Part shown: piece by piece, positions 10,617-33,236 of the stretch | Layout: the number at the start of each line of letters is the position of its first letter | How positions within the stretch are numbered: position 1 is the first letter of the stretch | Origin: Chloroflexota bacterium | GTDB lineage: Bacteria > Vulcanimicrobiota > JAMCWD01 | Direction of reading: 5' to 3' | NCBI GenBank assembly: GCA_023475345.1 | Contig: JAMCWD010000013.1 | Location: forward strand, 45,436-109,435 | DNA: 64,000 bases | Notes under the pieces: model-generated | What the model was told of the DNA's origin: nothing | What the model saw: only the letters and a program-made list of their open reading frames with translations | The model's database searches: none | Position numbers and translations under genes: made by a program

Positions 10617-10767
10617 TGTCCTTCCTCCTGAAAAACCTTATCAAGTATAATTCGCCAACTTTATTTAACTCCTCTTTCAACTGACAATTTCGTATGGAGG
10701 AATAATATGGTGTTCTGAAGAACTTCAATATAGTTGAATTCTCTCTATTATTAAGGAGGTTCACCCG

Positions 10768-11187
10768 ATGGCCGCTCCTGATAAAACTGCGAGAAAGCCG
10801 AATCCCCTCAAAAAAGAAGTCGGCCCGAGCATTACGATAAAGATTGGCGGCCTGATTATGTTATTGGGCCTTGTCTGCCTCCCCGTGATGCTGATTATGG
10901 GATTAATGGACTGGGGGCACAGGTTAAAAGAGCAGCAGCTTATCGATCCTTTATACTGGTCAACCGTGATGTGGGCGGGCACCGGCCTTATAGTCCTTGG
11001 AGTGCTTGTCGTTATTATCGGGTATATAAATAAGAAAGCGGCCGCGGAGCAGACGGGGACCGATATCCCATGCCCGAACTGCGGACATACTTACAGGCTG
11101 CCCGAGGGAGTCAAAAAATTCGAGTGTCCTTTATGCAGAAGAAAGGCGGTGGTGGATAGTGGCAAGGCATTTGTATTGCCGGAATAA
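10768..11187 (+). CDS. Membrane protein with C-terminal zinc-ribbon (CPNCG...CPLC)
   Basis: There are two TM helices. The motif 'CPNCGHTYRLPEGVKKFECPLCRRK' has four Cys. Confidence 0.5.
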   Translation: MAAPDKTARKPNPLKKEVGPSITIKIGGLIMLLGLVCLPVMLIMGLMDWGHRLKEQQLIDPLYWSTVMWAGTGLIVLGVLVVIIGYINKKAAAEQTGTDIPCPNCGHTYRLPEGVKKFECPLCRRKAVVDSGKAFVLPE

Positions 11188-13327
11188 ATTTTTATCTGTA
11201 GCAGCAATCATTATAGCAGCGATTCTGATCCTGGGGATTATGAATACGGGTTGTGCCCGGTTGGGATGCCAGAGGGAAAAGCCCCAGGCTGTCCCTTCGC
11301 CAAGCCCGACTATTGTTGAGAATAAGCCTGTCCCGGCTGATGATTCGATGACTCTTACCGACATAGGATCGGTAAATAAGGCCCTGGACAGGGGGAATAT
11401 CGATTCTGCTAAAGCCTGGCAGGTGCTTGAGCCTCTGCTTCAGCAAAATCCCAACGACCCTGGCCTCCTGTTTACAAAATCAAGGTTATTATGGACGGAA
11501 GGCAAATATGCCGAAGCCCAAACAACTGTAAACCAGGTGCTTGAGAAGGATCCTAAGAATGCATCGGCCCTTGCTTTCAAGGCATCTGTCCTTCTGGATA
11601 ATTTCCAGAACAAGGAAGCGGCCGAATATGTAAAAAGGCTTAAGGAAATCGATCCCGGCAGTCAGAAAAGCCAACTGCTCCAGGCCCAGGTGCTTGTTAA
11701 CACCATGGAATATGCCCAGGCTGAAAGCATGCTTAATGCCTTAATAAAAAAATATCCGGACAGCATCGAAGCCTATAAAATTCTTGCCAACGCTTATGAT
11801 CAAAGCCTTCAAACGGATAAAGGGATAGAATTTTTAAATGCTGCCGTTAAAAGGAACTGGTCAAACCCGAAAGACAAGTCTTTCCTGCTCGGAAGAATGG
11901 GTGAAATGTATGAGCGTAAAGGCAACATGCAGGAAGCCGTTAAAGCTATGGATGAAGCAGTTAAGCTGGACCCCGATAACGCCCTTGCCAGTGGAAAGCT
12001 TGCCATGTTTACAGTAGTTCTTGAGAATCCCGGGCAGATGCGTAAAGATGTTGTAAAAGCCGCGGGTGAAAAAAATGCAGATAGTCCTTACCCGTTATAT
12101 GCTCAGGCCCAACTGGCGATGTATGACGGGCAGTTCGGTCCTGCCAGAGTTTTTATAAACGAGGCTATAAAGAGATTCCCGTTGAATATAACGGGGTATT
12201 TTCTGCTGGGCAAATTCAGCCTGGATAACTATGAATACAAAATAGCGCAGAGAGCTTATGCCCAGGCGGAGGTTCGCCGCCCGGGAGATTATGACACCAA
12301 AATGGGAGAAATATTCCTTGCCCTTATACAGAGGGATTTCGACAAAGCAAATAAAATGATGTCCGATTTTGTAATACTGGAACATCGTAAAGCCGAATAT
12401 TACCGGAGGCTGGGCGATGTTTATTATAAGCATTTGAGAGAGCCCGCCAAGGCACGCGAATATTACAACAAAGCCGCGGGAATCACGGGACAGGGACTGG
12501 AGTCCGTCATGGCATCGGTCGCGTTGGGCAAGATAGAACTGGGTGAAGGCAAAGTTACAGAAGCCGAAAAATATTTCAACCTGGCGCTGGCCAAGTCTCC
12601 TGCGATGTATTCGGTTTATGCCGACATTATCGATTGCGCAATTGGAAATAAAAAATTCGACCTTGCCAAAAAATATATGGGGCTGTGGGATCAAGAATCG
12701 GCAAAATTGAAGTCGCCGCCCAGGGCTGTAAGTTCGGCGTATATAAGATTTGCATACATGTACTCGATTGTCGGCGAGGTTGAAGAGGCCAAAAGGCTCA
12801 TAGAACTTGCAAAACGGGCGGAGCCCGGGAACCCCTTGCTTGAGGTCTCTTTAGGCAGGATTGCAATGATGGAAGGAAATAAGGAAGCCGCTAAAGGATA
12901 CTTCGGTACTTCCGTTAAAAATGATAAACACGATGCTTTTTCCTGGGTATGGCTCGGAGTTATTGCCGAACAGGAAGGTAAACAGAAAGAGGCCGAAACA
13001 TGTTTCGATAATGCAAAAAAAGTATTTTCCACTGTGGGGCCGCCGAAATTCATGGAACAACTGGCGCCCTCGATGGTCGATTACCTGAAGGCATGTGATT
13101 ATGCATTCATAAAAGACAGGAAGAATGCCGTCTTGAACCTTAAAAAGGCCATCGAAGAAGACGCCTTCAATGCCCCGAGAGCTTATGCCGATCCCGAATT
13201 TTACTCGATGAGAGTTGATCCTTTCTTTAAGAACGAACTCCCTCAAATATTAAAAACGGTCAAAGACAGGACTCCGCCGCCTACAAAGGACGAACTCACC
13301 TGGGAGTACGAAAGACAGGGGCAGTAA
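11159..13327 (+). CDS. TPR-repeat lipoprotein, paralog 1 of 9
   Basis: It has a signal peptide with lipobox-like 'NTGCARLGC' and multiple TPR-like helical repeats. Conserved N-terminal and C-terminal modules are shared with eight downstream genes. Confidence 0.75.
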   Translation: MARHLYCRNKFLSVAAIIIAAILILGIMNTGCARLGCQREKPQAVPSPSPTIVENKPVPADDSMTLTDIGSVNKALDRGNIDSAKAWQVLEPLLQQNPNDPGLLFTKSRLLWTEGKYAEAQTTVNQVLEKDPKNASALAFKASVLLDNFQNKEAAEYVKRLKEIDPGSQKSQLLQAQVLVNTMEYAQAESMLNALIKKYPDSIEAYKILANAYDQSLQTDKGIEFLNAAVKRNWSNPKDKSFLLGRMGEMYERKGNMQEAVKAMDEAVKLDPDNALASGKLAMFTVVLENPGQMRKDVVKAAGEKNADSPYPLYAQAQLAMYDGQFGPARVFINEAIKRFPLNITGYFLLGKFSLDNYEYKIAQRAYAQAEVRRPGDYDTKMGEIFLALIQRDFDKANKMMSDFVILEHRKAEYYRRLGDVYYKHLREPAKAREYYNKAAGITGQGLESVMASVALGKIELGEGKVTEAEKYFNLALAKSPAMYSVYADIIDCAIGNKKFDLAKKYMGLWDQESAKLKSPPRAVSSAYIRFAYMYSIVGEVEEAKRLIELAKRAEPGNPLLEVSLGRIAMMEGNKEAAKGYFGTSVKNDKHDAFSWVWLGVIAEQEGKQKEAETCFDNAKKVFSTVGPPKFMEQLAPSMVDYLKACDYAFIKDRKNAVLNLKKAIEEDAFNAPRAYADPEFYSMRVDPFFKNELPQILKTVKDRTPPPTKDELTWEYERQGQ

Positions 13328-13494
13328 CCGGAGAATTGAAAAATCGCTTTACGAAACCGGGTCTCCGTCTGAAAGCCGGGAACCCGGTTTGTTTTATACG
13401 GAACTGTCCGGGATATTAACGTTCATGTTATAATTAAAAAGGCCTGCCGCCTGCGGAAGGGGAACCCGGCATTTGAAAATATGGAGACAAAGTC

Positions 13495-15627: not shown

Positions 15628-15679
15628 TGCCGGATAATCTTATAATACTTATATACCAGGTAATATTGAGGAAATTCAG

Positions 15680-17815
15680 TTGAATCACTTATTGATGAAA
15701 TGCCGCCGGTCGGGATTGAGGATTTATCCCGGTATCGAATCCGGCCTCTTGATTTTGTTTATATTGTTTTTCCTGGCGGTATTTGTTGTAGTTTTCGGAG
15801 GGCCAGGTTGTGCAAGGGGGAGAGGTCCTTCAAGAATAATGAAGCAGCCTCTGCCGAAAAAAATCGATAATTCCATCCCGCTCAATAATGCCGGGGACAT
15901 AAAGAAGGCGCTGGATTCGGAGAACGTTGATTTCGATAGAGCCGGAAAGCTCCTGGATTCGCTCATAAGCAATACACCGGACGACTTATCGCTCCTTATG
16001 CTCAGGGCCAGACTTCTTCGGTCGCAGGGCAGAAACGACGAATCTTTTGCGATCATGGAAGATGTCCTTTCAAAAGCTCCCGAAAATGCGGACGCGCTTG
16101 CTTTTAAAACGGAATACCTGCTCGACCGTTTTAAAAATGGAGAAGCCAGGAAAACAGTTGAGAAATTGATGAGCTTGAAACCGGACGATCCCGGGTGGAG
16201 GCTGCTGGAAGCAAGGGCGCTTACGAGGCTGGGCGAATTCGATAAAGCCGAAAAGATACTCAAGAAACTTATAAAGGAAGACCAGGGCAATATCGCTTAT
16301 TATATCCAGCTTTCGGATGTATATGATTCGAGTCTCAATATCGATAAAGGCATCGGTATCGTTAAGAAAGCCCTAAAGAGAGACTGGCCGGACAAATCCT
16401 CCGAGTCAAGATTAGTTGTCAGGATGGGCGAGATGCTTGAGAGGCAGGGAAAGAAAAAAGAGGCGATGGAAACTTTTAAAAAGGCTCTCGGCGTTGATCC
16501 TGAAAATCTCGATGCCAGGGCGAAACTCGCCCTGTGTATGGATTCGTTTTCAGATCCCGTAAGCAGTTGGGCCGAGGCGGAGAAGGCTATGGAGTTCGAA
16601 AGCAACAGCCCGTACCCCCTGTTTGCCGTTGCGCGGATCTACAGGAACGAAGGCCGGTTCACGCTTGCCATGGCCTCCCTTTATAAGGGCATAGCAAAAT
16701 TTCCCCAGGTGGATACAGGCTACCAGCTCCTGGGTAATTTTGCATTCGAATCGAAAAATTACCGCGAAGCCCTGGATGCTTATGACAGGCTGAAAATCCT
16801 ACGTCCCGGCGATTATAACACCTTACTCGGAGAAGCTCTGCTTGCCATCATATCCAAGGATTTTAAAAAAGCCGATTCCATTCTGGCTGCAATAAAACCC
16901 CCCGAACATCTCAAAGGAGATTTTTACCGTAAGCTCGGAGACGCTTACATGTTTCATCTCCGCGATTACAATAAGGCCGAGGCTTATTACAACAGGTCCC
17001 TGGAATATTTGAATGCGGATGAAAGCGAAGGCTTGAGGGAAGGCCCGGTTGCTGCGCTTATCGGCCTCGGGAAGATCGAGCTTTTAAGGGGTCATGACGA
17101 TAAGGCCGAGGCATATTTTCAACGCGCTATTTCGAAGGCTCCAGAAAATTTTTATGTTTATACGGGGATAATCCGATCCTGCATATCCGGTAATAAATTC
17201 AAGATGGCGAAGAAATATATTAATGAATGGGAACAGAGGAATACTCTCTGGGCGGCAAAAGACAGGATTTCGGCTTATCTGGGTTTCGCCGAGTTGTATT
17301 TGAGCGGCGATATTGAAGAATCCATAAAGATGGCCGGGGAAGCAAGAAAAGTGGATCCCGAAGCGCCGCCTTACGGCAAGCTTCTGATGGTTTTCAAGGA
17401 TGAGAAGAATAATGCAAGATCCTATTATGAACGTACCGTTAAAGTTCAGCCGGATGATTACATGGCATGGTTTTACCTGGGTCTCCTTGCCGAAGAAAAC
17501 GGCGAAACAGATAAGTCAGAACGCTATTACAAGGAAGCAATGAAGGGTCTTCGTTACCCCGGGGATCTCGATTATCAAAAAGCATGGATATATTCCGTCA
17601 GGAAAGACAAGGAAAAAGCGCTTCAATATCTGCGGAAAGCCTGTAATGAAAATGTTTATAACGCCGCAAAAGCTTATTCCGATGAGATGTTTGACTGGAT
17701 GAGAAACGATCCTTTTTTCAAGAACGAATTGCCGGAGATCTTAAAAAAAGTCAAAGACGAAAAACTACAACCGGAGAATGAACTCATCCGGGATTTTGGA
17801 GGCAATAGCCGCTGA
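15680..17815 (+). CDS. TPR-repeat lipoprotein, paralog 3 of 9
   Basis: It has the signal 'GGPGCARGRG' and the same architecture. Its 3' about 480 nt are nearly identical to the 3' end of paralog 4. Confidence 0.75.
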   Translation: MNHLLMKCRRSGLRIYPGIESGLLILFILFFLAVFVVVFGGPGCARGRGPSRIMKQPLPKKIDNSIPLNNAGDIKKALDSENVDFDRAGKLLDSLISNTPDDLSLLMLRARLLRSQGRNDESFAIMEDVLSKAPENADALAFKTEYLLDRFKNGEARKTVEKLMSLKPDDPGWRLLEARALTRLGEFDKAEKILKKLIKEDQGNIAYYIQLSDVYDSSLNIDKGIGIVKKALKRDWPDKSSESRLVVRMGEMLERQGKKKEAMETFKKALGVDPENLDARAKLALCMDSFSDPVSSWAEAEKAMEFESNSPYPLFAVARIYRNEGRFTLAMASLYKGIAKFPQVDTGYQLLGNFAFESKNYREALDAYDRLKILRPGDYNTLLGEALLAIISKDFKKADSILAAIKPPEHLKGDFYRKLGDAYMFHLRDYNKAEAYYNRSLEYLNADESEGLREGPVAALIGLGKIELLRGHDDKAEAYFQRAISKAPENFYVYTGIIRSCISGNKFKMAKKYINEWEQRNTLWAAKDRISAYLGFAELYLSGDIEESIKMAGEARKVDPEAPPYGKLLMVFKDEKNNARSYYERTVKVQPDDYMAWFYLGLLAEENGETDKSERYYKEAMKGLRYPGDLDYQKAWIYSVRKDKEKALQYLRKACNENVYNAAKAYSDEMFDWMRNDPFFKNELPEILKKVKDEKLQPENELIRDFGGNSR

Positions 17816-18032
17816 CCTGAGAATTAACAATCTGCGTTATAAAGAACCGGACACTTTCTTTTAAAAAAGGTCAGGATTTCAGGGAATTGATGATCGATTT
17901 TGATAAAAAAATGGTAAAATTTGGTGTAATATCAGAAACCGTATTATGCCTGAATTTGCCTGTCGATATTATTTTTCATGCTATAATTAATGTAATAAAT
18001 GAAAAACTATCACAGAAAAAGAGTAATAGGGC

Positions 18033-20846: not shown

Positions 20847-20880
20847 ATCCCTGTTAAAGACAGGCCGGTATAATAATATC

Positions 20881-23058: not shown

Positions 23059-23108
23059 TATGATGAAGACACCTTCAAAAACATCGAATTATTATATATA
23101 TTATTCCG

Positions 23109-25517
23109 GTGCGAAGGTTTCAGGGAAGGAAAAAAGAAGAAAGCCAGGTCGAAACTACGGCAGTCCTATCCGGGTCTTCAAAGGGGATGAATTTTGTGGG
23201 AGCGTTTTTTAACAAAGGCATGAAACTGAAAGGGGTGTTGAAGAATACGGCTCGTGAGCGCCGGTTTTTTCACGCCGGTTTTTTAATCGCCGCCTGTTTC
23301 TTGGTATTATGCGGGATATTGTTCTCAGGCTGCCCGGGACCTGACCGTAACAGGGACAGAATGCCAGGGACGGAGCCGGGCGACAGAAAAGCCGCCGCAG
23401 ACGGCTCTTCCCGGTCTTCCATGCCTGTCGATACATCGGTTCCCATAAACAATATAGAGGATATCAAAAAGGGCCTCGATATGGGCAATATCAGGCTCGA
23501 TAAGGCGTGGAAAATACTTGACTCCGAACTCATAAAAAATCCCAATGACCCGTCTCTTTTGATCCTGAAAGCCCGGCTTTTATGGACGGACGGAAAATTC
23601 AACGAATCCTACAACGCTATACAGGAAGCCCTTGCGATGGATCCGAAGAATACCGGCGCCCTCTCGTTTAAGATCATCCTTTTGCTGGATAATTTCAAGG
23701 GAGAAGAAGCATACGAAACTTTGAAAAAGCTCCTGGAGATAAATCCTGATAGTGATGAAAGCAGGATGCTTCAGGCAAGGGTTATGATGCGGCTGAGAAA
23801 TTATGATGAAGCTCAGAAAGCACTGGAAGATATTATCAGGAAGAACCCTGAGAACCTCAGCGCATATATGTGGCTTATCGATGTTTATGACGAAAGCCTC
23901 CGCATGGATGACGGGATCAGGTTCACCCGGAGCGCTCTAAGAAAGAAATGGGCGGACAAAGACAGGTCGGTGCTGACCGAAAGGCTGGGTGAGTTGTACG
24001 AGCGGATGGGGAATGTAAAAGAGTCGGTCAAGCTCTTTGAAGAAGCGTTGAAGATTGACCCCAATAATAACAAGGCCAGGACGGGGCTTGCGACTTCGGT
24101 GGCCGCGCCGTCGGACCCTCTCCAGATAAGGAGCAATCCTGCAAAGCTACGCGAAAAAGTTGAAGGCGCGATGGAAGGCACTGAAAATGCCCGGTTCAAT
24201 GACGGTGACGAATTTGCGCGCCTTTTTGCCCTGGGTCAGCTCAACGTGAGCGACGGGCACCTGTCTCTTGCCAAGGCCAACCTTTACAGGGCCGTGGAGA
24301 AGTTTCCCATGGAATCTTCTGGATACAAGGCGCTGGGTTATTATACCCTGAATTTCAAAGAATACCGTGAAGCGCAGAAAGCTTATCAATATACCAGGAA
24401 AATCCTTCCCAACGATTATGACGCATTGACGGGGGAAGCCCTGGTAGCTATCGTAAGAAGAGACCCCGAAACTGCGGAGTCGCTTCTTTCGAAAATAAAT
24501 CCCCCGGAGCACCGCAGGGGCGAGCATTATCGCAGGCTCGGAGACGCTTACATGTTCGACCTTCACGATGTTGACACGGCCGAAAAATATTATAAGAAGT
24601 CAGCCGAATACCTGGGACAGGGGGAAGATCCCATAATGTCCATGGTGTTCCTCGGCAATATAGAACTGAAGCGGGGCAATGTCAAGAAAGCGGAAGATTA
24701 CTTCCAGCGCGCCCTGGCAAAACTTCCCGAAGATGTAGAGAATAACATGCTGGCAACGTTCATTTACAAGCATATCCAGAAACACAAGTTCGATATAAAC
24801 ATAATAACCGCGGTAACAGTGGCCTCAATAAGCAACCATAAAGATGATCTGACCCAAAAATATGTTAACGAGTGGAAAAGCGTCGATGACAAATTGACCC
24901 CCAGGGAGCGCGGCGTATATTATTTGAAATGCGCCCGTTATTATCTTTATGACGGGAACATGTCCAAAACACACGAGATGATCGATATAACAAAAAAGGT
25001 GGACCCGACTCATCCCATGATCAACCATTATCTCGGCAGGGCGTACATGATAGAAGGCGACAGGGAAAAGGCAAAAGTCTGTTTCAAAAAGGCGCTTGAA
25101 AATACGCCTGAAGACGCTTATTCGTGGTTTAACCTGGGCATGATAGCCGAAGAAGAAGGGGATAAGCAGCTTGCCCAAACTTACTATAAAGAAGCAAAGA
25201 AAGGCTTCCGCTCGCCCGGCGATATCGATTTCCACAAGGCATGGGTGTATTGCCTGAGAAGAGACAGGAAAAATGCAGTCCGTTCATTGAGAGAAGCGAT
25301 AAAAAAAGATATTTTCAACGCCTGCAGAGCTCATGCCGAAGATTCGTTTGACTGGATGAGAGATGACCCGTTTTTCAAGAATGAGCTGCCCGAAATCCTG
25401 AAGCAGGTTAAAGACAAGACAAGGCTGCCTTCCGAAGGGGAAACGGAATTTGAGAAACACGGATGGAAGAACCTGGAAAATGAAAATACCGGTCCGTCCG
25501 GGGAAAAATCCGATTGA
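23109..25517 (+). CDS. TPR-repeat lipoprotein, paralog 6 of 9. The likely true start is near 23220.
   Basis: It has the signal 'LFSGCPGPD' and the conserved modules. There is an extra insertion 'KHIQKHKFDINIITAVTVASISNHKDD'. The first about 37 aa of the annotated ORF lack signal-peptide character. Confidence 0.7.
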   Translation: MRRFQGRKKEESQVETTAVLSGSSKGMNFVGAFFNKGMKLKGVLKNTARERRFFHAGFLIAACFLVLCGILFSGCPGPDRNRDRMPGTEPGDRKAAADGSSRSSMPVDTSVPINNIEDIKKGLDMGNIRLDKAWKILDSELIKNPNDPSLLILKARLLWTDGKFNESYNAIQEALAMDPKNTGALSFKIILLLDNFKGEEAYETLKKLLEINPDSDESRMLQARVMMRLRNYDEAQKALEDIIRKNPENLSAYMWLIDVYDESLRMDDGIRFTRSALRKKWADKDRSVLTERLGELYERMGNVKESVKLFEEALKIDPNNNKARTGLATSVAAPSDPLQIRSNPAKLREKVEGAMEGTENARFNDGDEFARLFALGQLNVSDGHLSLAKANLYRAVEKFPMESSGYKALGYYTLNFKEYREAQKAYQYTRKILPNDYDALTGEALVAIVRRDPETAESLLSKINPPEHRRGEHYRRLGDAYMFDLHDVDTAEKYYKKSAEYLGQGEDPIMSMVFLGNIELKRGNVKKAEDYFQRALAKLPEDVENNMLATFIYKHIQKHKFDINIITAVTVASISNHKDDLTQKYVNEWKSVDDKLTPRERGVYYLKCARYYLYDGNMSKTHEMIDITKKVDPTHPMINHYLGRAYMIEGDREKAKVCFKKALENTPEDAYSWFNLGMIAEEEGDKQLAQTYYKEAKKGFRSPGDIDFHKAWVYCLRRDRKNAVRSLREAIKKDIFNACRAHAEDSFDWMRDDPFFKNELPEILKQVKDKTRLPSEGETEFEKHGWKNLENENTGPSGEKSD

Positions 25518-27841
25518 GCCGGGATGTATCGCCGGATGGTTTTATAACAACATGTTGGGGGAAAGGTAGTAGAGTAGATATGAAGGATCTTTTAAAAACC
25601 GGACAGGACAGGGGCATTTACAAATCGGTTGCCGCAATCGTTGCCATACTGCTTGCGGTGATTTTGTTTACGGGTTGTGCCAGGATGGGTTGTAATCGTG
25701 AAAAGCCTGTTTCGAAAGAATTTTCGTCCCGCGACGGGGGCAAAGACGGGAGCAATGTTAACAGGCCTGCTCCCGAAGGATTGACGGGGCCGAATAGCCT
25801 GGAGGAACTTAAAAAAGGTCTTGCCGAGGGCGATGTCAACATAGAAAAAGGATGGGAAATCCTGAACCCCCTGCTGAAAAGAAATCCCAAAGACATAAAC
25901 CTCATGGTTCTCCAAGCGGGCCTTACATGGCAGGAGAACAAGCTTGAAGAGGCTCTCAGGCTCCTCGATGATATTTTGAAAAAAAATCCTTTAAACCCGG
26001 AGGCGCTTGATTTAAAGACAAGGATCCTGCTCGACCAGTTCAGGAACAGGGAAGCGATGGAGACCGCGAACCAGTTGATGAAAGTAGATCCCGGCAGTTA
26101 TGAGTACCAGTTGCTTAAAGCAAAAGTGATGATAAAAAATAAAGAGTATGATCAGGTGGAGGGCCTGCTGAAGACACTGGTCAATAATTATCCCGTAAGA
26201 ATCGGAGCTTATCTCGAGCTTGCCGAGCTTTACGATGCGAGCGGCCAGACCGATAGAGGCATAGAATTTGTTAGAAAGTCACTTCAGGGGCAATGGGAGG
26301 ATCCCAATAATGTGAGCCTCCAGGGCGACAGGGGCATAGAATTGAATAAAAAAGATCAGTTTTCTCCCAAGGACAAAGCAAGCCTGATAACGCGGCTCGG
26401 GCAGTTCGTGGAGAAGCAGGGCAATGAAGAAGAATCGTCTCGTCTTTACCAGGTGGCGATTTCGCTTAATCCCAAAGATGTTAAGGCCCAGTCAAGGCTT
26501 TCGATGACGGGGGTCAATCCTTTCGATCCTATCAAGATGGAATCTCATGCGAAAAAAGCAATGGAATACAACAAGGACGAGCCCGACCCGTACGTTGCGA
26601 CGGCGCTATACCAGTGGAACGACGAGATGTTCACCGACGCATACATGACGTTGTACGAAACAATGAAAAAGTTTCCGCTGGAGATGAGGGCATATACCCA
26701 GCTCGGGTATTTCTCGTATTTCATTTACCAGTATAAGATTTCACAAAAAGCTTACTCGTATGCCAATGTTTTGTTCCCCGGCGATTACGACGCGCTTTTC
26801 GGCTTATCGAGAGTGGATACGGTGAGGAGGGATTTTGCCTCCGCCGAGGAGCGCCTGGCGGCGGCATCGAAGAAGATCCCGAAACACCGCTACGGTGAGC
26901 ATTACAGGAAACTTGGCGAGATGTACCTGCTCCACATGCGGGATTACAAGAAAGCCCGTGAGAATTTTTTGGAGTCGATGAAATACGTCAACGAAACGGG
27001 CGATCTGAAAGACGGCCCTGTAATGGCGATGGTCTTCCTGGGAAGCATTGAACTCAGAAACAACAATTATGAAGGGGCGGAAAAACAATTCAAAACGGCT
27101 TTAAAAACGATGCCTGGCGATATCAACATTTATACGAAGATAATCTATGAAATATTGAGGAACCGCAAATATGATCTTGCGGACAAGTATATATCCGAAT
27201 GGGAAAAGCTTCAGACGAACATGAAGATACCGATCCTAAGCCTGTTTTATCTGCGTTATGCCCACATTTTCATGATGCAGGGCGAGCTTGAAAGGGCGGA
27301 AAAAATGATCGAAAGGGCAAAAATATCCGATCCCGAAGATCCCATGATTTATAACAGGCTGGGCCTGCTTTCCCTGATAAAAGGCGATAAGGAAAAAGCA
27401 AAGGAATATTATAAAAAGTGCATCAAGGGCTATCATAACGAATCGTTTTCATGGTTCGGCCTCGGCCTTATCGCAGAAGAAGAAGGCGATAAGGAAGAAG
27501 CCGAAAGATGCTATACCGAGGCAGCAAAACTATTCCGATCTACGGGCGACCTGGATTATCAGAAAGCATGGTTCTACGCGGTGCGCAACAAGAACGACGA
27601 AGCCGTAAAAGCGCTCAAAACTTCTATCAATAAAGATGCTTTCAATGCGTGCAGAGCATACAACGAAATCGCTTTCGACAGGATAAGGAATCGCCCGTTT
27701 TTCAAAAACGAACTGCCGGTGTTGCTAAAGCAGGTTAAAGACAGGACCCAACTGGTCGCAGAGGACATCAAATTTAAAGAAGAAGTGCGGCGGAATGGTA
27801 GCTATGCCAAACCCCTCTCGTCCGGGGACAAGTCCGATTAA
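25514..27841 (+). CDS. TPR-repeat lipoprotein, paralog 7 of 9. An alternative start at 25580 has a better RBS.
   Basis: It has the signal 'LFTGCARMGC' and the conserved modules. There is a short internal duplication 'DRGIEF...DRGIEL'. The annotated start overlaps the stop of paralog 6 (25514-25517). Confidence 0.7.
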   Translation: MSRDVSPDGFITTCWGKGSRVDMKDLLKTGQDRGIYKSVAAIVAILLAVILFTGCARMGCNREKPVSKEFSSRDGGKDGSNVNRPAPEGLTGPNSLEELKKGLAEGDVNIEKGWEILNPLLKRNPKDINLMVLQAGLTWQENKLEEALRLLDDILKKNPLNPEALDLKTRILLDQFRNREAMETANQLMKVDPGSYEYQLLKAKVMIKNKEYDQVEGLLKTLVNNYPVRIGAYLELAELYDASGQTDRGIEFVRKSLQGQWEDPNNVSLQGDRGIELNKKDQFSPKDKASLITRLGQFVEKQGNEEESSRLYQVAISLNPKDVKAQSRLSMTGVNPFDPIKMESHAKKAMEYNKDEPDPYVATALYQWNDEMFTDAYMTLYETMKKFPLEMRAYTQLGYFSYFIYQYKISQKAYSYANVLFPGDYDALFGLSRVDTVRRDFASAEERLAAASKKIPKHRYGEHYRKLGEMYLLHMRDYKKARENFLESMKYVNETGDLKDGPVMAMVFLGSIELRNNNYEGAEKQFKTALKTMPGDINIYTKIIYEILRNRKYDLADKYISEWEKLQTNMKIPILSLFYLRYAHIFMMQGELERAEKMIERAKISDPEDPMIYNRLGLLSLIKGDKEKAKEYYKKCIKGYHNESFSWFGLGLIAEEEGDKEEAERCYTEAAKLFRSTGDLDYQKAWFYAVRNKNDEAVKALKTSINKDAFNACRAYNEIAFDRIRNRPFFKNELPVLLKQVKDRTQLVAEDIKFKEEVRRNGSYAKPLSSGDKSD

Positions 27842-27872
27842 TATTTAAGAGCAACAAAGAAAAGGATACAAC

Positions 27873-30047
27873 TTGAACATGAAAAAGACTGCCGGAACGA
27901 CTGGAGGACCGATGACAGGTGATAAAAGGCGGAAAAGAAATATCCCGCCGTTATTGGCGGCCGTGCTTTTATTCCTTGCCGTTATATTTGCCGTTTTCGC
28001 AGGATGTTCAGGGCCGGGATGCGACAGGGGATCCGGAACGGACAATCGTTCGATGAGACCCGGGCAGGAAGACAAAAATATCCAAAACGATAAAGACGAA
28101 AGGTCCGGCGGCGTCGATAACGGGAACGATACCTCGTCTCCCCTGAATAATATTGAGGATGTCAGGAAAGCTCTGGACAGGGGCGATCTGGACCTTGACA
28201 GGGCATGGCGGATACTTGAGCCTCTCCTTGCGAAGAACCCCGGCGACATGTCTCTTCTGACAATTAAGGCAAGGCTTTTATGGTCAATGGACAAGTATGA
28301 CCAGGCATTGAAAACCTTCGATTATATACTCAGTAAGGAGCCTGACAATGCCTTCGCCCTTTCGTTTAAAACAAGGATATTGCTCGACAATTTTAAGACT
28401 GAAGAAGCAAGAAAGGCGATGGAACATCTCCTGGCGATAGATCCCGGCAGTTTGGAAAACAGGATCCTGAAAGCAAGGGTGTTATTTCAGTCACGGGATT
28501 ATAAAGGAGCAGAGGGTATACTTCTCCCAATCATAAAAAAAGAACCGGGTAATATAGACGCGGCCCTTTTCCTCGTCGATATTTACGACAGGAATAAACA
28601 AACCGATGAAGCAATCGGAGTCGTTCAGAATATATTGAAAACAGGCAGCCCCGGCAATGAGGATAAATCCCAGCTTCTCACAAGGCTAGGCGACCTGATG
28701 GAAAGAAAAGGAAAGACCGAAGAAGAATACATGAAATATTTCCAGGAAGCGTTGAAGCTGGACCCTCAGAACACGCAGGCCAAATCCCGGCTTGCCTTCA
28801 GCATGACCGATATGTCCGACCCGGTAAAATTCCGAAAACAGGTGGAAAAATCGCTGGAGTCGAAAATAACCACCCCTTTCCAGCTTTATGCTCTTGCCGA
28901 ACTCGATTTTAACGACGGCAAGATCCAGATGGGGAAAGCGGCTCTGTTTAAAGCCATAAAAATGTTCCCGCTCGAAGTAACCGGCTATAACATTCTGGGG
29001 TATATAACTTTTGATTTTAAGGAATACTATACCGCACAGACGGCGTATGCGCATTCGAAGCGGCTGAACCCCGGCGACTATAACGAATCCATGGGGGAGG
29101 CGCTCCTTGCCATAGTAAGAAGAGATTTCAAATCGGCAAATACGATCCTTGCATCTATAGACCCTCCCGAACACCGGGAATGCGAGCATTTTCTTCGGCT
29201 CGGGGACTGCTACATGGATCATCTCAGGGATTATGATACGGGACGAAAATATTTCCTCAAAGCGATTGAAAAAGTCGAGAAGAAAGGCGATTCCATCGTC
29301 CCTTACATCAACCTCGGCAATATCGAGCTTCTCAGAAATAACGACGCGGAAGCCGAAAAATATTTCCGAAAAGCTCTGGATCAAGGCGATGTTTATGCTT
29401 ATGCCGGGATACTGCTGGAAGTGATCGAGAACCGGAGATATCAGATGGCGGAAAAATATCTTTCGGAATGGAGAAAGAAAACAGGCGCCTGGGGTCCCAG
29501 GGACAGAAGCACGATTTTCCTCGGCTGTGACGATTCGTACCTCATGAACGGGGACCTGGAATATTCTCAAAAAATGATTGCCCTTGCCCGGAAGGCCGAC
29601 CCCACCGACCCCATGGTTGACCAGCATCTTGCGAAAGTGTATCTTGCGCTGGGGCAGTACGATAAAGCAAAGCCCCTGCTTGAAAAGACCCTGGAAAAAT
29701 TCCCGGACGAATACCAGACAATCTATTACCGGGGATTGATATCGGAAGAAGAAGGCGATATGAAAAGCACCGAAAAATATTATAGCAAAGCAAGGGAATG
29801 CTACAGGGGTCCCGGAGACCTGGATTACCTGAAGGCACAGATCTTTTCCGTCGGCAGGAAGAAGGACAAGGCGTTGAAAGCTCTCCGCAAATCTATTGAC
29901 GAAGATGCCTTCAATGCCTGCAGGGCTTATTGCGACGAGGCATGGGACTGGATGAGAGACGACGATTTCTTCAAGAAAGAGATCCCTGTTTTGATAACGA
30001 AAGTCAAAAACCAGACAATGCCGCCGCCTGAAAACCTGCCCTGGTAA
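27873..30047 (+). CDS. TPR-repeat lipoprotein, paralog 8 of 9
   Basis: It has the signal 'VFAGCSGPGC' and the conserved modules. Confidence 0.75.
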   Translation: MNMKKTAGTTGGPMTGDKRRKRNIPPLLAAVLLFLAVIFAVFAGCSGPGCDRGSGTDNRSMRPGQEDKNIQNDKDERSGGVDNGNDTSSPLNNIEDVRKALDRGDLDLDRAWRILEPLLAKNPGDMSLLTIKARLLWSMDKYDQALKTFDYILSKEPDNAFALSFKTRILLDNFKTEEARKAMEHLLAIDPGSLENRILKARVLFQSRDYKGAEGILLPIIKKEPGNIDAALFLVDIYDRNKQTDEAIGVVQNILKTGSPGNEDKSQLLTRLGDLMERKGKTEEEYMKYFQEALKLDPQNTQAKSRLAFSMTDMSDPVKFRKQVEKSLESKITTPFQLYALAELDFNDGKIQMGKAALFKAIKMFPLEVTGYNILGYITFDFKEYYTAQTAYAHSKRLNPGDYNESMGEALLAIVRRDFKSANTILASIDPPEHRECEHFLRLGDCYMDHLRDYDTGRKYFLKAIEKVEKKGDSIVPYINLGNIELLRNNDAEAEKYFRKALDQGDVYAYAGILLEVIENRRYQMAEKYLSEWRKKTGAWGPRDRSTIFLGCDDSYLMNGDLEYSQKMIALARKADPTDPMVDQHLAKVYLALGQYDKAKPLLEKTLEKFPDEYQTIYYRGLISEEEGDMKSTEKYYSKARECYRGPGDLDYLKAQIFSVGRKKDKALKALRKSIDEDAFNACRAYCDEAWDWMRDDDFFKKEIPVLITKVKNQTMPPPENLPW

Positions 30048-30275
30048 AATCTCATTGTTGTATTGGATCCGGCTTTAAATTAAGAGACCCTTGAGCCCGG
30101 CTCCAAAAATCGTACCAGGGAGTGATTTGAGAAACCGCACAGCGGTTCGCCATATTCCGAAAACCAATATATGGGCCTTAACGGCTATACATAAAATATC
30201 TTTTTTTTGCTAAGATCAGCATGTAAAATGCCCGGTCGCCGATATTTAATTTAAGGGACGGTATTAATAATTTAT

Positions 30276-32375
30276 ATGGCCGGATCTTATAAATTTCAAC
30301 GCGGTAATTTTCGCAGTAGAAATTTAATTTTGCTGGCGGCGGCGGTTATTATTTGCTTGAATTTAACCGGTTGTGGGACGGGCAGTAAAGGCCGGGGAGA
30401 TATTTCCGGGGGGAATATCTCAAATGCTGGCAGCGCCATGGAGCAGTCCGATACTAATTCCCCGATTAACAGCCTGTCCGATATAAAAGAGTCGCTTGAT
30501 AAAGGCGACATCAACCAGGAAAGAGCCTGGCAGATTCTCAACCCTCTGCTGAAGGAAAAGCCCGACGATGCCGGGCTTCTGCTGCTTAAATCAAGGCTTT
30601 TATGGTCTGAAGACAGGCTGGATGAATCCCAAAAAATTCTTGATATTATCCTTGAAAAAAATCCCGATGATAAAGACGCTATTGCGTTTAAAGCCAGAAT
30701 GCTTCTGGATCAGTTCGATAACGAGGACGCCGATAAAATGCTTGAGAATCCCGGCGAGTTCTCGCCCGATGAATATCAGGAACAGCTTTTAGTAGCGCGG
30801 GGTTTATTCCAGGAACAGAAATATAAAAAAGCGGAGACAAAGCTTCTGGATATTATCAAAAAACGCCCTGATTATGTCGATGCTTATTTATTACTTGCAG
30901 ACGTTTACGACGGGGGACTCCAGCCTGAAAAAGGAAAGAAATTCCTTGAGAGTGCTTTAAAGAGGAAATGGCCCAACAATGCAGATAAAACGAACCTCTT
31001 TGTCAGGCTGGGGGAGATTTATGAAAGAAAGGGCAGGGAAGACGAGGCTGTTAAATATTTCAAAAAGGCCTTGAAAGTAAAGCCGGACAACTCATTTGCA
31101 AAGGCTAAAATCTCCATGTGTACCAACGATTTCGAGATCCCGGGGGAACTCGAAGAAGGCATGACAAAATCCCTGGACTCGGCTGACGGCAGTTCTTACG
31201 CTTATTTCGCCCTTGCTAAAATCTATTATAACGACGGCCGCAAGGACAGGGGAAGAAGAATGTTGTACGAGGCATTGAAGAAATTCCCGCTTGAGATGGA
31301 AGGCTATTACCTGCTCGGTCAGTTTTCGTTCGAGGACAAGGAGTACAGCGAGTCCCAGATGGCATACGCTCATTCACGGGCGCTGCAGGTGGAAGATTAT
31401 GATACGTTCCTGGGAAGGGCGCTTCTGGATCTTGTAAGGAGGGATTTCGATTCGGCAAATAAGATCCTGTCTGTCATAAAGATCCCGAAGCTGTTAACCG
31501 TCAGGCACTATCGAAAAGTGGGAGATACATATCTTTTCCACCTCCGGGATTATGAGACCGCCCGCAAATATTACAACAAAGCTCTTAAATACAGGGGTCC
31601 GGATGATGATACCAGTATGGCGCTTGCGAACCTCGGATCGATTGAGCTTAAAGAAAACAGGGACAGTGAAGCTGAAAAATATTTTCAGAGGGCCATCAGG
31701 CAAATACCGGGCGACATCAGTATATACACTCAGATAATTCCCGCCATGATACTGAACCGCCGGTACGATACGGCCAGAAGATATATGTCGTTGTATGAGA
31801 AGAACAAATCCGGGATGAATAAAAAGGTCAGCGACGCTCTGCACGTTCGTTGTGCTTATAGCTACATGATGAACGGAGATTTTGAAGAGGCTCGTAAAAT
31901 TCTTGATAAAGCCATGAAAGTAAATCCGTATAACCCTGTGGTAGAGAACCTCATGGGAAAAATCGAGATGCTCCAGGGCAATAATAAAAAGGCCGGAGAA
32001 TATTTCAAGTGGCTGACCGAGAAAAATATTACAGATACGAGCATGTTGATTTTCCAGGGTTTGATAGCAGAGGAAGAAGGGGATAAGAGCGGGGCCGGGC
32101 AGTATTACAACCGGGCCGGGGAAAGCCTCGGGAACTCCGGCGAAGTAGAATACCAGAAAGCCTGGATATATTCTTTAAAAAGGAACAAGGCCGAATCTTT
32201 AAGGTATCTTCGCGAAGCATGCAATAAAGATATCTATTATGCCGCCAGGGCATACAGCGATGAAGCCTTCGACTGGATGAGAGGCGACCCGTTCTTTCAA
32301 TCCGAACTGCCCGGATTGATAAAGCAGATAAAAAGCAAAAAGCCCTTCCCTTCGGCGAAAGAACTCAAGTGGTAA
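30276..32375 (+). CDS. TPR-repeat lipoprotein, paralog 9 of 9
   Basis: It has the signal 'NLTGCGTGS' and the conserved C-terminal 'YYAARAYSDEAFDWMRGDPFFQSELPGLIKQIKSK'. Confidence 0.75.
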   Translation: MAGSYKFQRGNFRSRNLILLAAAVIICLNLTGCGTGSKGRGDISGGNISNAGSAMEQSDTNSPINSLSDIKESLDKGDINQERAWQILNPLLKEKPDDAGLLLLKSRLLWSEDRLDESQKILDIILEKNPDDKDAIAFKARMLLDQFDNEDADKMLENPGEFSPDEYQEQLLVARGLFQEQKYKKAETKLLDIIKKRPDYVDAYLLLADVYDGGLQPEKGKKFLESALKRKWPNNADKTNLFVRLGEIYERKGREDEAVKYFKKALKVKPDNSFAKAKISMCTNDFEIPGELEEGMTKSLDSADGSSYAYFALAKIYYNDGRKDRGRRMLYEALKKFPLEMEGYYLLGQFSFEDKEYSESQMAYAHSRALQVEDYDTFLGRALLDLVRRDFDSANKILSVIKIPKLLTVRHYRKVGDTYLFHLRDYETARKYYNKALKYRGPDDDTSMALANLGSIELKENRDSEAEKYFQRAIRQIPGDISIYTQIIPAMILNRRYDTARRYMSLYEKNKSGMNKKVSDALHVRCAYSYMMNGDFEEARKILDKAMKVNPYNPVVENLMGKIEMLQGNNKKAGEYFKWLTEKNITDTSMLIFQGLIAEEEGDKSGAGQYYNRAGESLGNSGEVEYQKAWIYSLKRNKAESLRYLREACNKDIYYAARAYSDEAFDWMRGDPFFQSELPGLIKQIKSKKPFPSAKELKW

Positions 32376-33206: not shown

Positions 33207-33236
33207 ATTTACTTGTCTAGGCCGGAAGCTTTACTT

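What the first reader, a model, noticed from the sequence alone, without database searches (positions are those of the whole stretch)
11159..32375. Nine-gene head-to-tail array of paralogous TPR lipoproteins (21 kb)
Nine consecutive same-strand genes encode proteins of 700-940 aa with the same architecture. Each has a signal peptide with a Cys-x(3-4)-Cys lipobox region, a conserved N-terminal module ('D.S.PL.N..D..KALD.....KAW..L.PLL..NP.D..LL.LKARLLW'), a TPR-rich variable core, and a nearly invariant C-terminal about 45-aa module ('DIFNA.RAYADE.FDWMRDDPFFKNELP.LLKQVKDK'). Pairwise divergence is high in the core and low at the termini. Gaps between genes are short (-4 to about 230 bp), so the genes may be co-transcribed. 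Such a large local expansion of a single lipoprotein family suggests a diversifying surface or periplasmic family. It could work in antigenic or phase variation, or as receptor or chaperone-like adaptors. The conserved C-terminal module does not correspond to any domain I can name. The array lies back-to-back with the flagellar sigma-28 gene.
Basis: seen in the sequence. Interest (0 to 1): 0.75.

Follow-up and report, generated by a model that had tools for sequence, protein, structure and literature searches.

The report
Tandem array of TPR lipoprotein paralogues
Nine neighbouring genes in an uncultured bacterium encode old, individually conserved copies of one membrane-tethered helical-repeat (TPR) protein family found only in this narrow lineage; it is a real but fairly ordinary gene-family expansion, not an antigenic-variation system, and its conserved end is an already catalogued TPR 'cap' domain.

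Summary
The array is real. Nine same-strand ORFs of 699-937 aa sit at exactly the stated coordinates, and all are homologous (34-45% identity; g3/g4 66%). All have a hydrophobic leader ending in x-x-G-Cys, a disordered tether and about 18 TPR hairpins. Three details need correcting. The C-terminal module is only about 55% identical, not nearly invariant. It matches a named NCBIfam domain (NF047558, TPR end-of-group). The FliA gene is convergent with the array, not divergent. An exhaustive search of 1.84 billion proteins found the family only in this MAG, a sister strain and one related MAG. This MAG holds ten close paralogues plus one distant relative; the related MAG holds at least seven members, some in tandem with conserved order. 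Orthologue dN/dS is 0.11-0.20, and there are no repeat tracts, inverted repeats or near-identical cassettes, so antigenic or phase variation is not supported. The array changes by recombination in the conserved 3' module: g4 is a g2/g3 chimera, g3/g4 share a conversion tract, and the sister strain lacks g5 at a clean crossover. The proteins are most likely extracytoplasmic TPR binding scaffolds with specialised partners. The function is inferred, not shown. Interest is modest.

The parts
10768..11187 (+). Small membrane protein (139 aa) with two TM helices and a C-terminal CPxC...CPLC zinc ribbon. It sits at the head of the array and overlaps the g1 start by 29 nt. It is a possible conserved partner, not a family member.
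   Evidence: Pfam Zn_ribbon_FGT1_2. The same order, PhoU_div(-) / Zn-ribbon(+) / TPR member, occurs in the second MAG (L009). The Zn-ribbon proteins are 37% identical and the PhoU_div proteins 51%.
11159..13327 (+). g1, 722 aa. Relaxed lipobox MNTG-C32, TPR solenoid, TPR end-of-group cap at aa 642-692 (nt 13082-13234), and an ELTW tail followed by 7 extra residues.
   Evidence: (NF047558 32.3 bits). Deposited as MCL5036188. Reproduced at 100% identity in Logan contig L001.
13495..15627 (+). g2, 710 aa. Strict lipobox FTVG-C41, cap at aa 637-686 (nt 15403-15552), tail ending ELEW.
   Evidence: (31.8 bits, just under the cutoff). Reproduced in L001. The NCBI start (678 aa) cuts into the signal peptide.
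15680..17815 (+). g3, 711 aa. Atypical lipobox GGPG-C44, cap at aa 632-682 (nt 17573-17725), no W tail. Recent paralogue of the g4 body.
   Evidence: 42.7 bits; 66% to g4; 100% bootstrap with g4.
18033..20846 (+). g4, 937 aa, a chimera. Residues 1-305 (nt 18033-18947) resemble the g2 N-terminal third, including its signal peptide and lipobox FSTG-C41. Residues 306-937 (nt 18948-20846) are a complete g3-like mature protein. Cap at aa 874-924 (nt 20652-20804). It ends right after the cap with no tail.
   Evidence: BLASTP: aa 1-305 match g2 at 58%; aa 306-937 match g3 aa 60-693 at 69%. NF047558 33.3 bits.
17305..17604 (+). Probable gene-conversion tract near the 3' ends of g3 and g4; the partner copy is at 20384-20683.
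   Evidence: 90% nucleotide identity here, against 73-77% over the rest of g3/g4. dS falls to 0.115 in alignment codons 541-600, against about 0.8-1.0 elsewhere.
20881..23058 (+). g5, 725 aa. Strict lipobox ISSG-C55, cap at aa 652-702 (nt 22834-22986), tail ending DLEW. Absent from the sister-lineage contig.
   Evidence: (34.3 bits). Deposited as MCL5036192. L005 joins a g4-like 3' end to the g5 tail and the g5|g6 spacer, with the crossover inside the conserved C-terminal module.
23109..25517 (+). g6, up to 802 aa (the true start is probably later: GTG 23196 or ATG 23220). Lipobox LFSG-C75, a 20-aa insertion shared with P0024, cap at aa 709-758 (nt 25233-25382), long tail ending GEKSD.
   Evidence: (44.4 bits). 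Orthologues: P0023 at 89% in the sister lineage and P0024 at 49% in the second MAG. dN/dS 0.11.
25514..27841 (+). g7, 775 aa from TTG 25514 or 753 aa from ATG 25580. Strict lipobox LFTG-C55, cap at aa 682-732 (nt 27557-27709), tail ending GDKSD.
   Evidence: (37.7 bits). Orthologue P0171 follows P0024 in L003 (90% bootstrap). dN/dS 0.16.
27873..30047 (+). g8, 724 aa. Strict lipobox VFAG-C45, cap at aa 652-702 (nt 29826-29978; 26.3 bits, below the cutoff), tail ending NLPW.
   Evidence: Reproduced in Logan contig L002.
30276..32375 (+). g9, 699 aa. Relaxed lipobox NLTG-C33, cap at aa 626-676 (nt 32151-32303; 47.7 bits), tail ending ELKW. This is the protein that was modelled.
   Evidence: AlphaFold2 model: mean pLDDT 82, pTM 0.78, disordered residues 29-60, then about 36 helices forming one solenoid. 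Reproduced in L002.

Best explanation
This is a tandem cluster of nine old paralogues from a lineage-restricted multigene family. This genome holds ten close copies plus one distant relative.

Each protein is most likely made with a lipoprotein signal peptide, acylated on the invariant Cys, and held at a membrane on the extracytoplasmic side by an 18-35-residue Pro/Ser/Gly-rich tether. The body is one continuous superhelix of about 18 TPR hairpins. It is closed by a conserved N-terminal capping helix and first repeat, and by a conserved C-terminal cap (NCBIfam NF047558). Most copies then carry a Pro-rich linker with a [DE][LF]xW motif at or very near the C-terminus.

By analogy with other long TPR solenoids, the proteins probably act as non-enzymatic binding scaffolds or adaptors for extended peptides or partner proteins in the cell envelope. 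The paralogues differ from one another, but each is held constant by purifying selection. This points to a division of labour among partners, not to continuing diversification.

The conserved termini are best explained as solenoid caps. At the DNA level, the conserved 3' module also serves as the substrate for unequal crossing-over and gene conversion, which reshape the array.

Shown: homology, architecture, lipobox conservation, family distribution, purifying selection and recombination footprints. Inferred: lipidation, location, scaffold function, and any binding of the tail in a TPR groove.
For: Homology and architecture. An invariant Cys after a hydrophobic segment occurs in all 19 family N-termini examined from both lineages; 6 of the 9 array proteins fit the strict lipobox pattern. 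AF2 model of g9: pLDDT 82, pTM 0.78, disordered tether at 29-60, about 36 helices. Fold matches are only generic TPR scaffolds and peptide-binding TPRs such as APC/C, TTC7B, Ctr9, OGT, Hop, Tom70, PilW, LpoP and ActH.

The C-terminal cap matches NF047558 in the array and in outside members, including the distant P0156. Helices 35-38 are the most conserved, at 54-69%.

Exhaustive profile search of 1.84e9 representatives: full-length single-stretch hits are only this MAG's genes, a sister-strain g6 orthologue, members from one other MAG, and P0156. Below them come only giant multi-TPR proteins. There were zero motif matches in 185,579 species genomes and in the JGI metagenomes.

Orthologue pairs g6/P0024 and g7/P0171 keep the same order. 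The left flank PhoU_div / Zn-ribbon / member is conserved. dN/dS is 0.11-0.20. Recombination footprints: the g4 chimera, the g3/g4 conversion tract and the g5 deletion junction in the sister contig. The [DE][LF]xW tail motif occurs in 11 of the 19 C-termini examined, from both MAGs.
Against: No experiment or signal-peptide predictor (SignalP, LipoP) was available. Three array lipoboxes are atypical: Asn at -3 in g1, Asn at -4 in g9, and Pro at -2 in g3. No binding partner was identified. No conserved neighbour with an informative function was found apart from a small Zn-ribbon membrane protein, PhoU_div and an RCC1-repeat protein. A-helices, which line the groove, are slightly more conserved (44%) than B-helices (37%), so there is no direct sign that paralogues differ mainly in the groove. 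The envelope type of the organism is uncertain, because the submitters' phylum labels conflict. The middle of the array rests on a single assembly.
Confidence: 0.6

Rival explanations
1. One reading: a diversifying surface family used for antigenic or phase variation, with copies exchanged or switched on and off.
For: There are many tandem copies with conserved ends that can recombine. There are real recombination footprints: the g4 chimera, the g3/g4 conversion tract and loss of g5 in a sister strain. The proteins are putatively surface or envelope located.
Against: dN/dS is 0.11-0.20 between orthologues at 84-90% identity, with no core window above 0.41. The paralogues are ancient (34-45% identity) and have orthologues in a second genome. 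There are no homopolymer or short-repeat tracts beyond three 8-nt runs, no inverted repeats of 20 nt or more, and no near-identical cassettes. All nine are full-length genes with their own leader sequences. The source appears to be an environmental MAG, with no host immune system to evade; this last point is inferred.
Confidence: 0.05
2. Envelope-machine accessory proteins tied to motility. Candidates are periplasmic flagellar scaffold or collar-type TPR proteins (like spirochaetal FlcA) or pilus and gliding TPR lipoproteins (PilW/PilF, Tgl, GltE). The idea comes from the adjacent fliA-flgJ-flgG-flgF-fliK genes.
Against: All these hits are far below the curated cutoffs: PilW 42-94 against 154, FlcA 19-31 against 300, GltE 22-42 against 225. 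The flagellar genes are on the opposite strand and convergent. No convincing sigma-28 promoter precedes the array genes. Family members in the second MAG and the other copies in this MAG lie in unrelated contexts.
Confidence: 0.1
3. Members of the PrsT family (XrtA/PEP-CTERM system TPR-repeat lipoprotein), working in exopolysaccharide and exosortase-dependent protein sorting.
For: TIGR02917 is the best whole-protein NCBIfam hit for all nine copies (118-172 bits). PrsT is also a long TPR lipoprotein. Generic PrsT-named proteins were the next hits in the word-indexed search.
Against: Scores are about half the curated cutoff of 312.2, and each match is broken into 2-5 separate stretches, which indicates generic TPR similarity. 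No exosortase or PEP-CTERM protein was found among the window ORFs scanned. The giant neighbouring protein ends in a dockerin plus a TM anchor, not PEP-CTERM.
Confidence: 0.03
4. The copy number is partly an assembly artefact, with mis-joins between similar genes in a short-read MAG.
For: The Logan assembly of the same run breaks inside g3 (at 17371) and resumes in g6 (at 25337), so g4, g5 and the junctions between them rest on one assembly. g3/g4 share a 300-nt stretch at 90% identity. A sister-strain contig lacks g5, so strain mixtures could confuse assemblers.
Against: Both ends of the array (g1-g3 and g6-g9) are reproduced at 100% identity by an independent assembler. The paralogues differ too much (at most about 77% nucleotide identity) to be collapsed or invented. 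g4 and g6 are confirmed as neighbours of one another's orthologues in the sister contig. g5 is a distinct, intact gene with its own leader, not a copy of another.
Confidence: 0.07

Closest known systems
NCBIfam NF047558 'TPR end-of-group domain' (TPR_END_plus)
   Same: The conserved C-terminal ~50 residues of the array proteins align to positions 3-53 of the 56-position model. Seven of nine copies score at or above the curated cutoff, as do outside family members. The domain sits at the end of the TPR run, as the name implies.
   Different: It is only a domain model with no assigned function. It does not define this family, its lipoprotein leader, its N-terminal module or the Pro-rich [DE][LF]xW tail.
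PrsT, XrtA/PEP-CTERM system TPR-repeat lipoprotein (TIGR02917)
   Same: A long (700-900 aa) TPR solenoid with a lipoprotein signal. It is the best-scoring whole-protein model.
   Different: Scores of 118-172 bits against a cutoff of 312. There is no exosortase or PEP-CTERM context in the window. PrsT is typically a single gene within a polysaccharide locus (from my own knowledge of the TIGRFAM description), not a nine-gene array.
Small envelope TPR lipoproteins that dock or activate machines: PilW/PilF (type IV pilus), LpoP/LpoA (PBP activators), BamD, ActH, BepA TPR domain
   Different: Those proteins have 3-6 TPRs and are single-copy with defined partners. Here there are about 18 repeats and 10-11 paralogues. 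All the family models fail their cutoffs.
Eukaryotic long TPR scaffolds and C-terminal-peptide receptors (APC/C Cdc27/Cdc16, Ctr9, OGT TPR, TTC7B, Hop/STI1, Tom70, Pex5)
   Same: These are the best structural matches: superhelical multi-TPR scaffolds. Hop, Tom70 and Pex5 bind short C-terminal peptides in the groove, which offers a precedent for the idea that the [DE][LF]xW tail could be a TPR ligand.
   Different: The resemblance is in fold class only (TM 0.2-0.3, 9-18% identity). There is no common descent beyond the TPR superfamily, and the cellular compartment differs.

Membership tests
TPR repeat superfamily (Pfam TPR clan) | Multiple 34-residue helix-turn-helix repeats detected by the TPR HMMs | tested here: met
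   TPR_2, TPR_14, TPR_16, TPR_19 and others score 64-138 bits, above their cutoffs, in all nine proteins. The AF2 model is an all-alpha solenoid.
NCBIfam NF047558 TPR end-of-group domain | HMM score at or above the curated cutoff (32 bits), located at the C-terminal end of a TPR run | tested here: met
   Scores: g1 32.3, g3 42.7, g4 33.3, g5 34.3, g6 44.4, g7 37.7, g9 47.7. g2 (31.8) and g8 (26.3) fall just below. The match is always the last ~50 residues of the solenoid.
Bacterial lipoproteins (Lgt/LspA substrates; PROSITE PS51257-type lipobox, rule recalled from memory) | Signal peptide whose hydrophobic region ends in [LIVMFWSTAG](2)-[LIVMFYSTAGCQ]-[AGS]-Cys | tested here: met
   The strict pattern is met in g2, g4, g5, g6 (Cys75), g7 and g8. 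Only a relaxed pattern is met in g1 (MNTGC), g3 (GGPGC) and g9 (NLTGC). The Cys is invariant in all 19 family N-termini examined. SignalP and LipoP were not available.
Bacterial lipoproteins | Actual diacylglyceryl modification and signal peptidase II cleavage; presence of lgt and lspA in the genome | not testable with these tools
   Only 64 kb of the genome is available, and no biochemistry can be done.
PrsT (TIGR02917, equivalog) | Whole-protein HMM score at or above 312.2 bits | tested here: not met
   118-172 bits, in 2-5 separate stretches.
PrsT (TIGR02917) | Genomic association with exosortase XrtA and PEP-CTERM proteins | tested here: not met
   None found among the window ORFs scanned with Pfam. 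The rest of the genome was not examined.
Type IV pilus PilW/PilF (TIGR02521) | HMM score at or above 154 bits | tested here: not met
   42-94 bits in the nine proteins.
Periplasmic flagellar collar protein FlcA (NF047371) | HMM score at or above 300 bits | tested here: not met
   19-31 bits where it was detected at all.
Phase- or antigenic-variation loci | Simple-sequence tracts, invertible elements, or near-identical donor cassettes; elevated dN/dS | tested here: not met
   No repeat tracts of 5 or more units, and only three 8-nt homopolymers. No significant tandem repeats. No inverted repeats of 20 nt or more. Maximum inter-copy identity is 90% over 300 nt. dN/dS is 0.11-0.20.
Known anti-phage defence proteins (PADLOC) | Specific match to a defence-system model | tested here: not met
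   Only weak generic TPR matches, at most 40 bits.

The most novel reading that the evidence does not exclude
The paralogues may not be independent adaptors. They could instead be subunits of one lineage-specific envelope lattice. In this reading, the conserved Pro-rich linker and [DE][LF]xW tail of one copy docks into the TPR groove of another, as EEVD tails dock into Hop. This would build a hetero-oligomeric, membrane-tethered scaffold that organises the very large TIG/BACON/dockerin and RCC1-repeat surface proteins encoded next to family members in both genomes.
Probability: 0.1. Interest if true: 0.55.

Novelty: new member of a known kind. Interest (0 to 1): 0.3.

Why it matters
If the reading is right, this is an uncharacterised family of long TPR lipoproteins. 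It has no family-level model in Pfam or NCBIfam. It is confined to one poorly classified, uncultured lineage whose RecA is closest to Eremiobacterota/Vulcanimicrobiota, Armatimonadota and Bacillota. The family makes up a visible share of that lineage's envelope proteome, with 10-11 genes per genome. It gives a tidy natural example of how a conserved terminal module drives unequal crossing-over and gene conversion in a tandem array while each copy stays under purifying selection. It does not open a new mechanism or settle a long-standing question. Its practical value is in annotation: correcting start codons that hide the lipoprotein signal, and naming the C-terminal domain. It also provides a candidate set for finding envelope interaction partners in this lineage.

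Tried and rejected
(1) Word-indexed homologue searches with g5 and with a C-terminal profile returned only the query itself or nothing, and missed the window's own paralogues. I judged these negatives unreliable, because generic TPR candidates swamped the index. I replaced them with the exhaustive HMM search.

(2) The search for related loci with A2 in the genome collection found no relatives. With the gappy alignment A4 it could not pick a pattern. My own degenerate motif, F[DN]WMR[DN]D.FF, gave zero matches in genomes and metagenomes. A5 in metagenomes gave 227 pattern matches, none confirmed.

(4) A PDB sequence search with the C-terminal profile found only generic or designed TPRs, at E of 0.005 or higher.

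(5) The PADLOC defence library gave nothing specific.

(6) The sigma-28 promoter scan gave only sites with 2 mismatches. One lies 10 nt from the g5 ATG. This is not convincing.

(7) The g1|g2 and g3|g4 spacers are not demonstrably homologous. They share two short motifs, including CATG[TC]TATAATTAA, but do not align globally, so I make no claim.

(8) Per-helix conservation, used to look for a hypervariable groove, showed none: A-helices 44%, B-helices 37%.

(9) dN/dS among the old paralogues was not attempted, because dS is saturated. Only the orthologue pairs and g3/g4 were used.

(10) Literature searches for the run accession, 'TPR end-of-group', and Eremiobacterota with TPR found nothing relevant.

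(11) The consensus promoter and terminator scan was uninformative beyond one hairpin after g1.
Full report
**Observation.** The window carries nine consecutive + strand ORFs at exactly the coordinates given: 11159-13327, 13495-15627, 15680-17815, 18033-20846, 20881-23058, 23109-25517, 25514-27841, 27873-30047 and 30276-32375. They encode 699-937 aa. The gaps between them are 167, 52, 217, 34, 50, -4, 31 and 228 nt. The nine proteins align over their full length, with BLASTP E-values between 1e-135 and 0. Pairwise identity is 34-45%, apart from g3/g4 at 66%. Pfam finds only generic TPR models, spread along the whole chain.

**Corrections to the observation.** Four points need correcting.
- A sliding identity profile gives about 49% for the N-terminal module, 31-47% for the core and 54-55% for the C-terminal module. 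Only 13 of the last ~120 columns are invariant. The termini are more conserved, but the C-terminus is not 'nearly invariant'.
- The second cysteine (C-x3-4-C) occurs in six of the nine copies.
- The sigma factor at 32424-33206 is a FliA/WhiG-family member (TIGR02479, 195.3 bits against a cutoff of 189.6). It is followed by Rod-binding, FlgG/F-like and FliK-like genes. It lies on the minus strand, tail to tail with g9, so it shares no regulatory region with the array.
- The actual upstream neighbours are a PhoU_div (DUF47) gene on the minus strand and a small protein with two TM helices and a zinc ribbon. The end of that small gene overlaps the g1 start.

**The C-terminal module has a name.** NCBIfam NF047558, 'TPR end-of-group domain', matches positions 3-53 of its 56-position model at the very end of every copy. 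Seven copies reach the curated cutoff of 32 bits; g2 scores 31.8 and g8 26.3. The match also holds in family members from elsewhere, including a very distant one. This is a domain model with no assigned function. The best whole-protein model is PrsT (TIGR02917), at 118-172 bits in several separate stretches against a cutoff of 312. PilW, FlcA, GltE, Tgl, BcsC and PgaA are all far below their cutoffs. PADLOC gives nothing specific.

**Lipoprotein signal.** All 19 family N-termini I could examine, from the window, other contigs of the same MAG, the sister strain and the second MAG, have a hydrophobic segment that ends in x-x-[GAS]-Cys. Six of the nine array proteins fit the strict PROSITE-type lipobox, a rule I recalled from memory. 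g1, g3 and g9 fit only a relaxed version. After the Cys comes an 18-35-residue tether rich in Pro, Ser, Gly and Lys. The invariance of this Cys across paralogues that are only 40% identical is good indirect evidence for lipidation. No predictor or experiment was available. NCBI's start codons for g2 and g9 (678 and 672 aa) cut into the leader and would hide this signal.

**Source and assembly.** The genes are already deposited as MCL5036188-MCL5036196, all named 'tetratricopeptide repeat protein', on a 130-kb contig of a MAG labelled Chloroflexi/Chloroflexota. An independent Logan assembly of run SRR10267473 reproduces window 9352-17371 and 25337-34129 at 100% identity. Both ends of the array are therefore sound. 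The stretch from 17372 to 25336 (the end of g3, g4, g5 and most of g6) rests on the MAG assembly alone. DNA identity between copies is at most about 77% over long stretches and reaches 90% only over 300 nt, so collapse or inflation of copies is unlikely.

**Distribution.** The word-indexed protein search failed even to return the window's own paralogues, so I relied on an exhaustive profile search of 1.84 billion cluster representatives. There were 301,638 proteins with E of 0.001 or better, which is the generic TPR background. There is, however, a sharp cliff. Full-length, single-stretch hits are limited to the following; below them come only giant multi-TPR proteins that match in many stretches.
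- The window's own genes.
- P0023, 89% identical to g6.
- P0024, P0025, P0026, P0027, P0028, P0046 and P0080.
- A distant relative, P0156, at 207 bits and 21-25% identity.

Cluster look-ups show where these come from.
- P0025 and P0156 belong to the same MAG on other contigs. This genome therefore has ten close paralogues plus one distant relative.
- All the other hits come from one MAG, GCA_021159575.1, labelled Candidatus Eremiobacteraeota. It has at least seven distinct members on short contigs.
- One 90%-identity relative (P0170) lies on a JGI metagenome contig.

A family-specific DNA motif had zero matches in 185,579 species-representative genomes and in 241 million JGI metagenome records. 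RecA of the second MAG is 89% identical to RecA MCL5036991 of the window's MAG. It is only 71-76% identical to labelled Vulcanimicrobiota/Eremiobacterota, Armatimonadota and Bacillota sequences. The two MAGs thus belong to one narrow lineage, and at least one phylum label is wrong. The only cultivated Eremiobacterota species has a typical diderm envelope (PMC9758169). If that applies here, the proteins would be periplasmic or surface lipoproteins, but this is not established.

**Contexts elsewhere.**
- In the second MAG, three members lie head to tail on L003. The first is the orthologue of g6 (49% identity against 39-42% to the other paralogues, with a shared 20-aa insertion; 72% bootstrap). 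The second is the orthologue of g7 (90% bootstrap). The overlapping gene junction is the same.
- L009 repeats the window's left boundary: PhoU_div(-), Zn-ribbon(+), then a family member. The PhoU_div proteins are 51% identical and the Zn-ribbon proteins 37%. That member carries an in-frame TAG.
- L008 has two members flanking an RCC1-repeat gene that is 59% identical to the window's RCC1/TIG gene.
- The tenth paralogue and the distant P0156 are solitary, in unrelated contexts.
- The backbone of the family tree is star-like. g3/g4 here, and L008/L009 in the other lineage, are recent duplications.

The family was therefore already multi-copy, and partly tandem, in the common ancestor, and it has continued to turn over.

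**Selection.** A 4971-bp Logan contig from another run (ERR14064718, L005) is about 87% identical in DNA to the window and covers parts of g4, g6 and g7. Nei-Gojobori dN/dS is 0.20 for the g4 C-terminal part, 0.11 for full-length g6 and 0.16 for the g7 N-terminal part. No 60-codon window in the TPR body exceeds 0.41. Only the leader and tether reach 0.4-0.7. There are no simple-sequence tracts, no meaningful tandem repeats and no inverted repeats in the array. This argues against diversifying selection and against phase or antigenic variation. It fits paralogues that each keep their own function.

**Array dynamics.** Three footprints show recombination between copies.
- g4 is a chimera. Residues 1-305 match the N-terminal third of g2 (58%), including its leader. 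Residues 306-937 are a complete g3-like mature protein (69%).
- Between g3 and g4, dS drops from about 0.8-1.0 to 0.115 near the 3' end, where DNA identity is 90% (17305-17604 against 20384-20683). This is the signature of gene conversion.
- In the sister contig, the g4 orthologue runs g4-like up to the conserved GATC(C/T)TTTTTTCAAA core of the C-terminal module. It then switches to the g5-type tail and the g5|g6 spacer, and g6 follows. g5 is therefore missing at a clean crossover inside the conserved module. This is most simply a deletion by homologous recombination, but a short-read mis-join cannot be excluded.

Part of the C-terminal conservation is thus maintained or used at the DNA level.

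After the cap, 11 of the 19 family C-termini examined (18 distinct proteins) carry a Pro-rich linker and a [DE][LF]xW motif. They come from both MAGs.
- In eight of them the Trp is the last residue: g2, g5, g8, g9, P0024, P0171, P0080 and the L008 member.
- In g1 the motif is followed by 7 more residues, and in P0025/P0169 by one.
- g6, g7 and P0023 instead end in G[DE]K[SA]D.
- g3 and g4 lack either ending.

In the g9 model the tail has pLDDT of about 77, so it is not treated as fully disordered. TPR grooves classically bind C-terminal peptides, as in the Hop, Tom70 and Pex5 entries among the structural matches. The tail is therefore a candidate ligand for self-association or association between paralogues. 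This is speculation. I could not inspect coordinates or run multimer predictions.

**Transcription.** The three long spacers (g1|g2, g3|g4, g8|g9), a terminator-like hairpin after g1 (13373-13390) and TATAAT-like elements in several spacers suggest about four units: Zn-ribbon-g1, g2-g3, g4-g8 and g9. This is inference only. No convincing sigma-28 promoter was found.

**Conclusion.** The finding is a real tandem array from a narrow, uncharacterised family of long TPR putative lipoproteins. The paralogues are old, individually conserved, and reshuffled by recombination through their conserved 3' module. The most likely role is as extracytoplasmic protein-binding scaffolds or adaptors with specialised partners. 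The partners, the location and the lipidation all remain to be shown. It is a new family within a very familiar class, so interest is modest.

Noticed in passing
window 28-8052 (+): A giant ORF of 2674 aa, possibly starting before the window. It has N-terminal TIG domains, about 25 tandem Ig-like repeats of roughly 95 aa, BACON domains, a type I dockerin and a C-terminal TM anchor ending RRKKDR. It is a very large cell-surface protein.
   Followed up: partly
window 8482-9912 (-); L008 5701-6927 (-): A TIG plus seven-blade RCC1-repeat protein. A 59%-identical homologue sits between two TPR family members in the second MAG, so RCC1-repeat genes recur next to this family.
   Followed up: partly
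window 9969-10616 (-) and 10768-11187 (+); L009 732-1852: A PhoU_div (DUF47) gene lies divergent from a small gene encoding two TM helices and a zinc ribbon (CPxC...CPLC). The small gene is annotated 'hypothetical' (MCL5036187), and its 3' end overlaps g1. The trio PhoU_div / Zn-ribbon / TPR member is conserved in the second MAG.
   Followed up: partly
window 13900-13987 (-): ARAGORN calls a tRNA-SeC (anticodon tca) antisense inside g2. The Rfam gathering-threshold scan finds no tRNA there, so it is probably a false positive.
   Followed up: partly
window 58449-58569 (+): A cobalamin riboswitch (RF00174, 70.4 bits) lies upstream of a Peripla_BP_2 / FecCD / ABC ATPase transporter operon at 58686-61383.
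   Followed up: no
window 13495 and 30276 (gene starts): The deposited NCBI proteins for g2 (678 aa) and g9 (672 aa) start 32 and 27 codons downstream of the longest ORF start. This removes part or all of the signal peptide and hides the lipoprotein signal.
   Followed up: partly
whole MAGs (MCL50... and GCA_021159575.1): The two MAGs that share this family have RecA proteins 89% identical, yet are labelled Chloroflexota and Candidatus Eremiobacteraeota. The next-nearest labelled RecA sequences (71-76%) are Armatimonadota, Vulcanimicrobiota, Xenobium and Bacillota. At least one phylum label is wrong.
   Followed up: partly
L009 2281-2283: The family member next to PhoU_div and the Zn-ribbon gene in the second MAG has a single in-frame TAG, which splits it into 140-aa and 558-aa calls. 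It is a pseudogene, a sequencing error or a read-through site.
   Followed up: no
L004 6024-8036: The distant paralogue P0156 (670 aa, lipobox IITGC, with its own TPR end-of-group cap) is from the same MAG. It lies beside a GAF-GAF-HD protein and a STAS / HATPase_c_2 (anti-sigma antagonist and kinase-like) gene pair.
   Followed up: no
window 47057-49978 (+): A 973-aa protein made almost entirely of WD40 repeats (multiple beta-propellers). Together with the RCC1, TPR and TIG genes, this makes the region unusually rich in repeat-scaffold proteins.
   Followed up: no
window 13328-13494 and 17816-18032: The g1|g2 and g3|g4 spacers share the motif CATG[TC]TATAATTAA, which resembles an extended -10 element, and a similar opening (CC[GT]GAGAATT). 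They do not align globally.
   Followed up: partly
tool behaviour: The word-indexed homologue search returned neither the eight paralogues of the query nor, for the C-terminal profile, even the query proteins themselves. Its negatives for TPR-rich queries are unreliable.
   Followed up: yes
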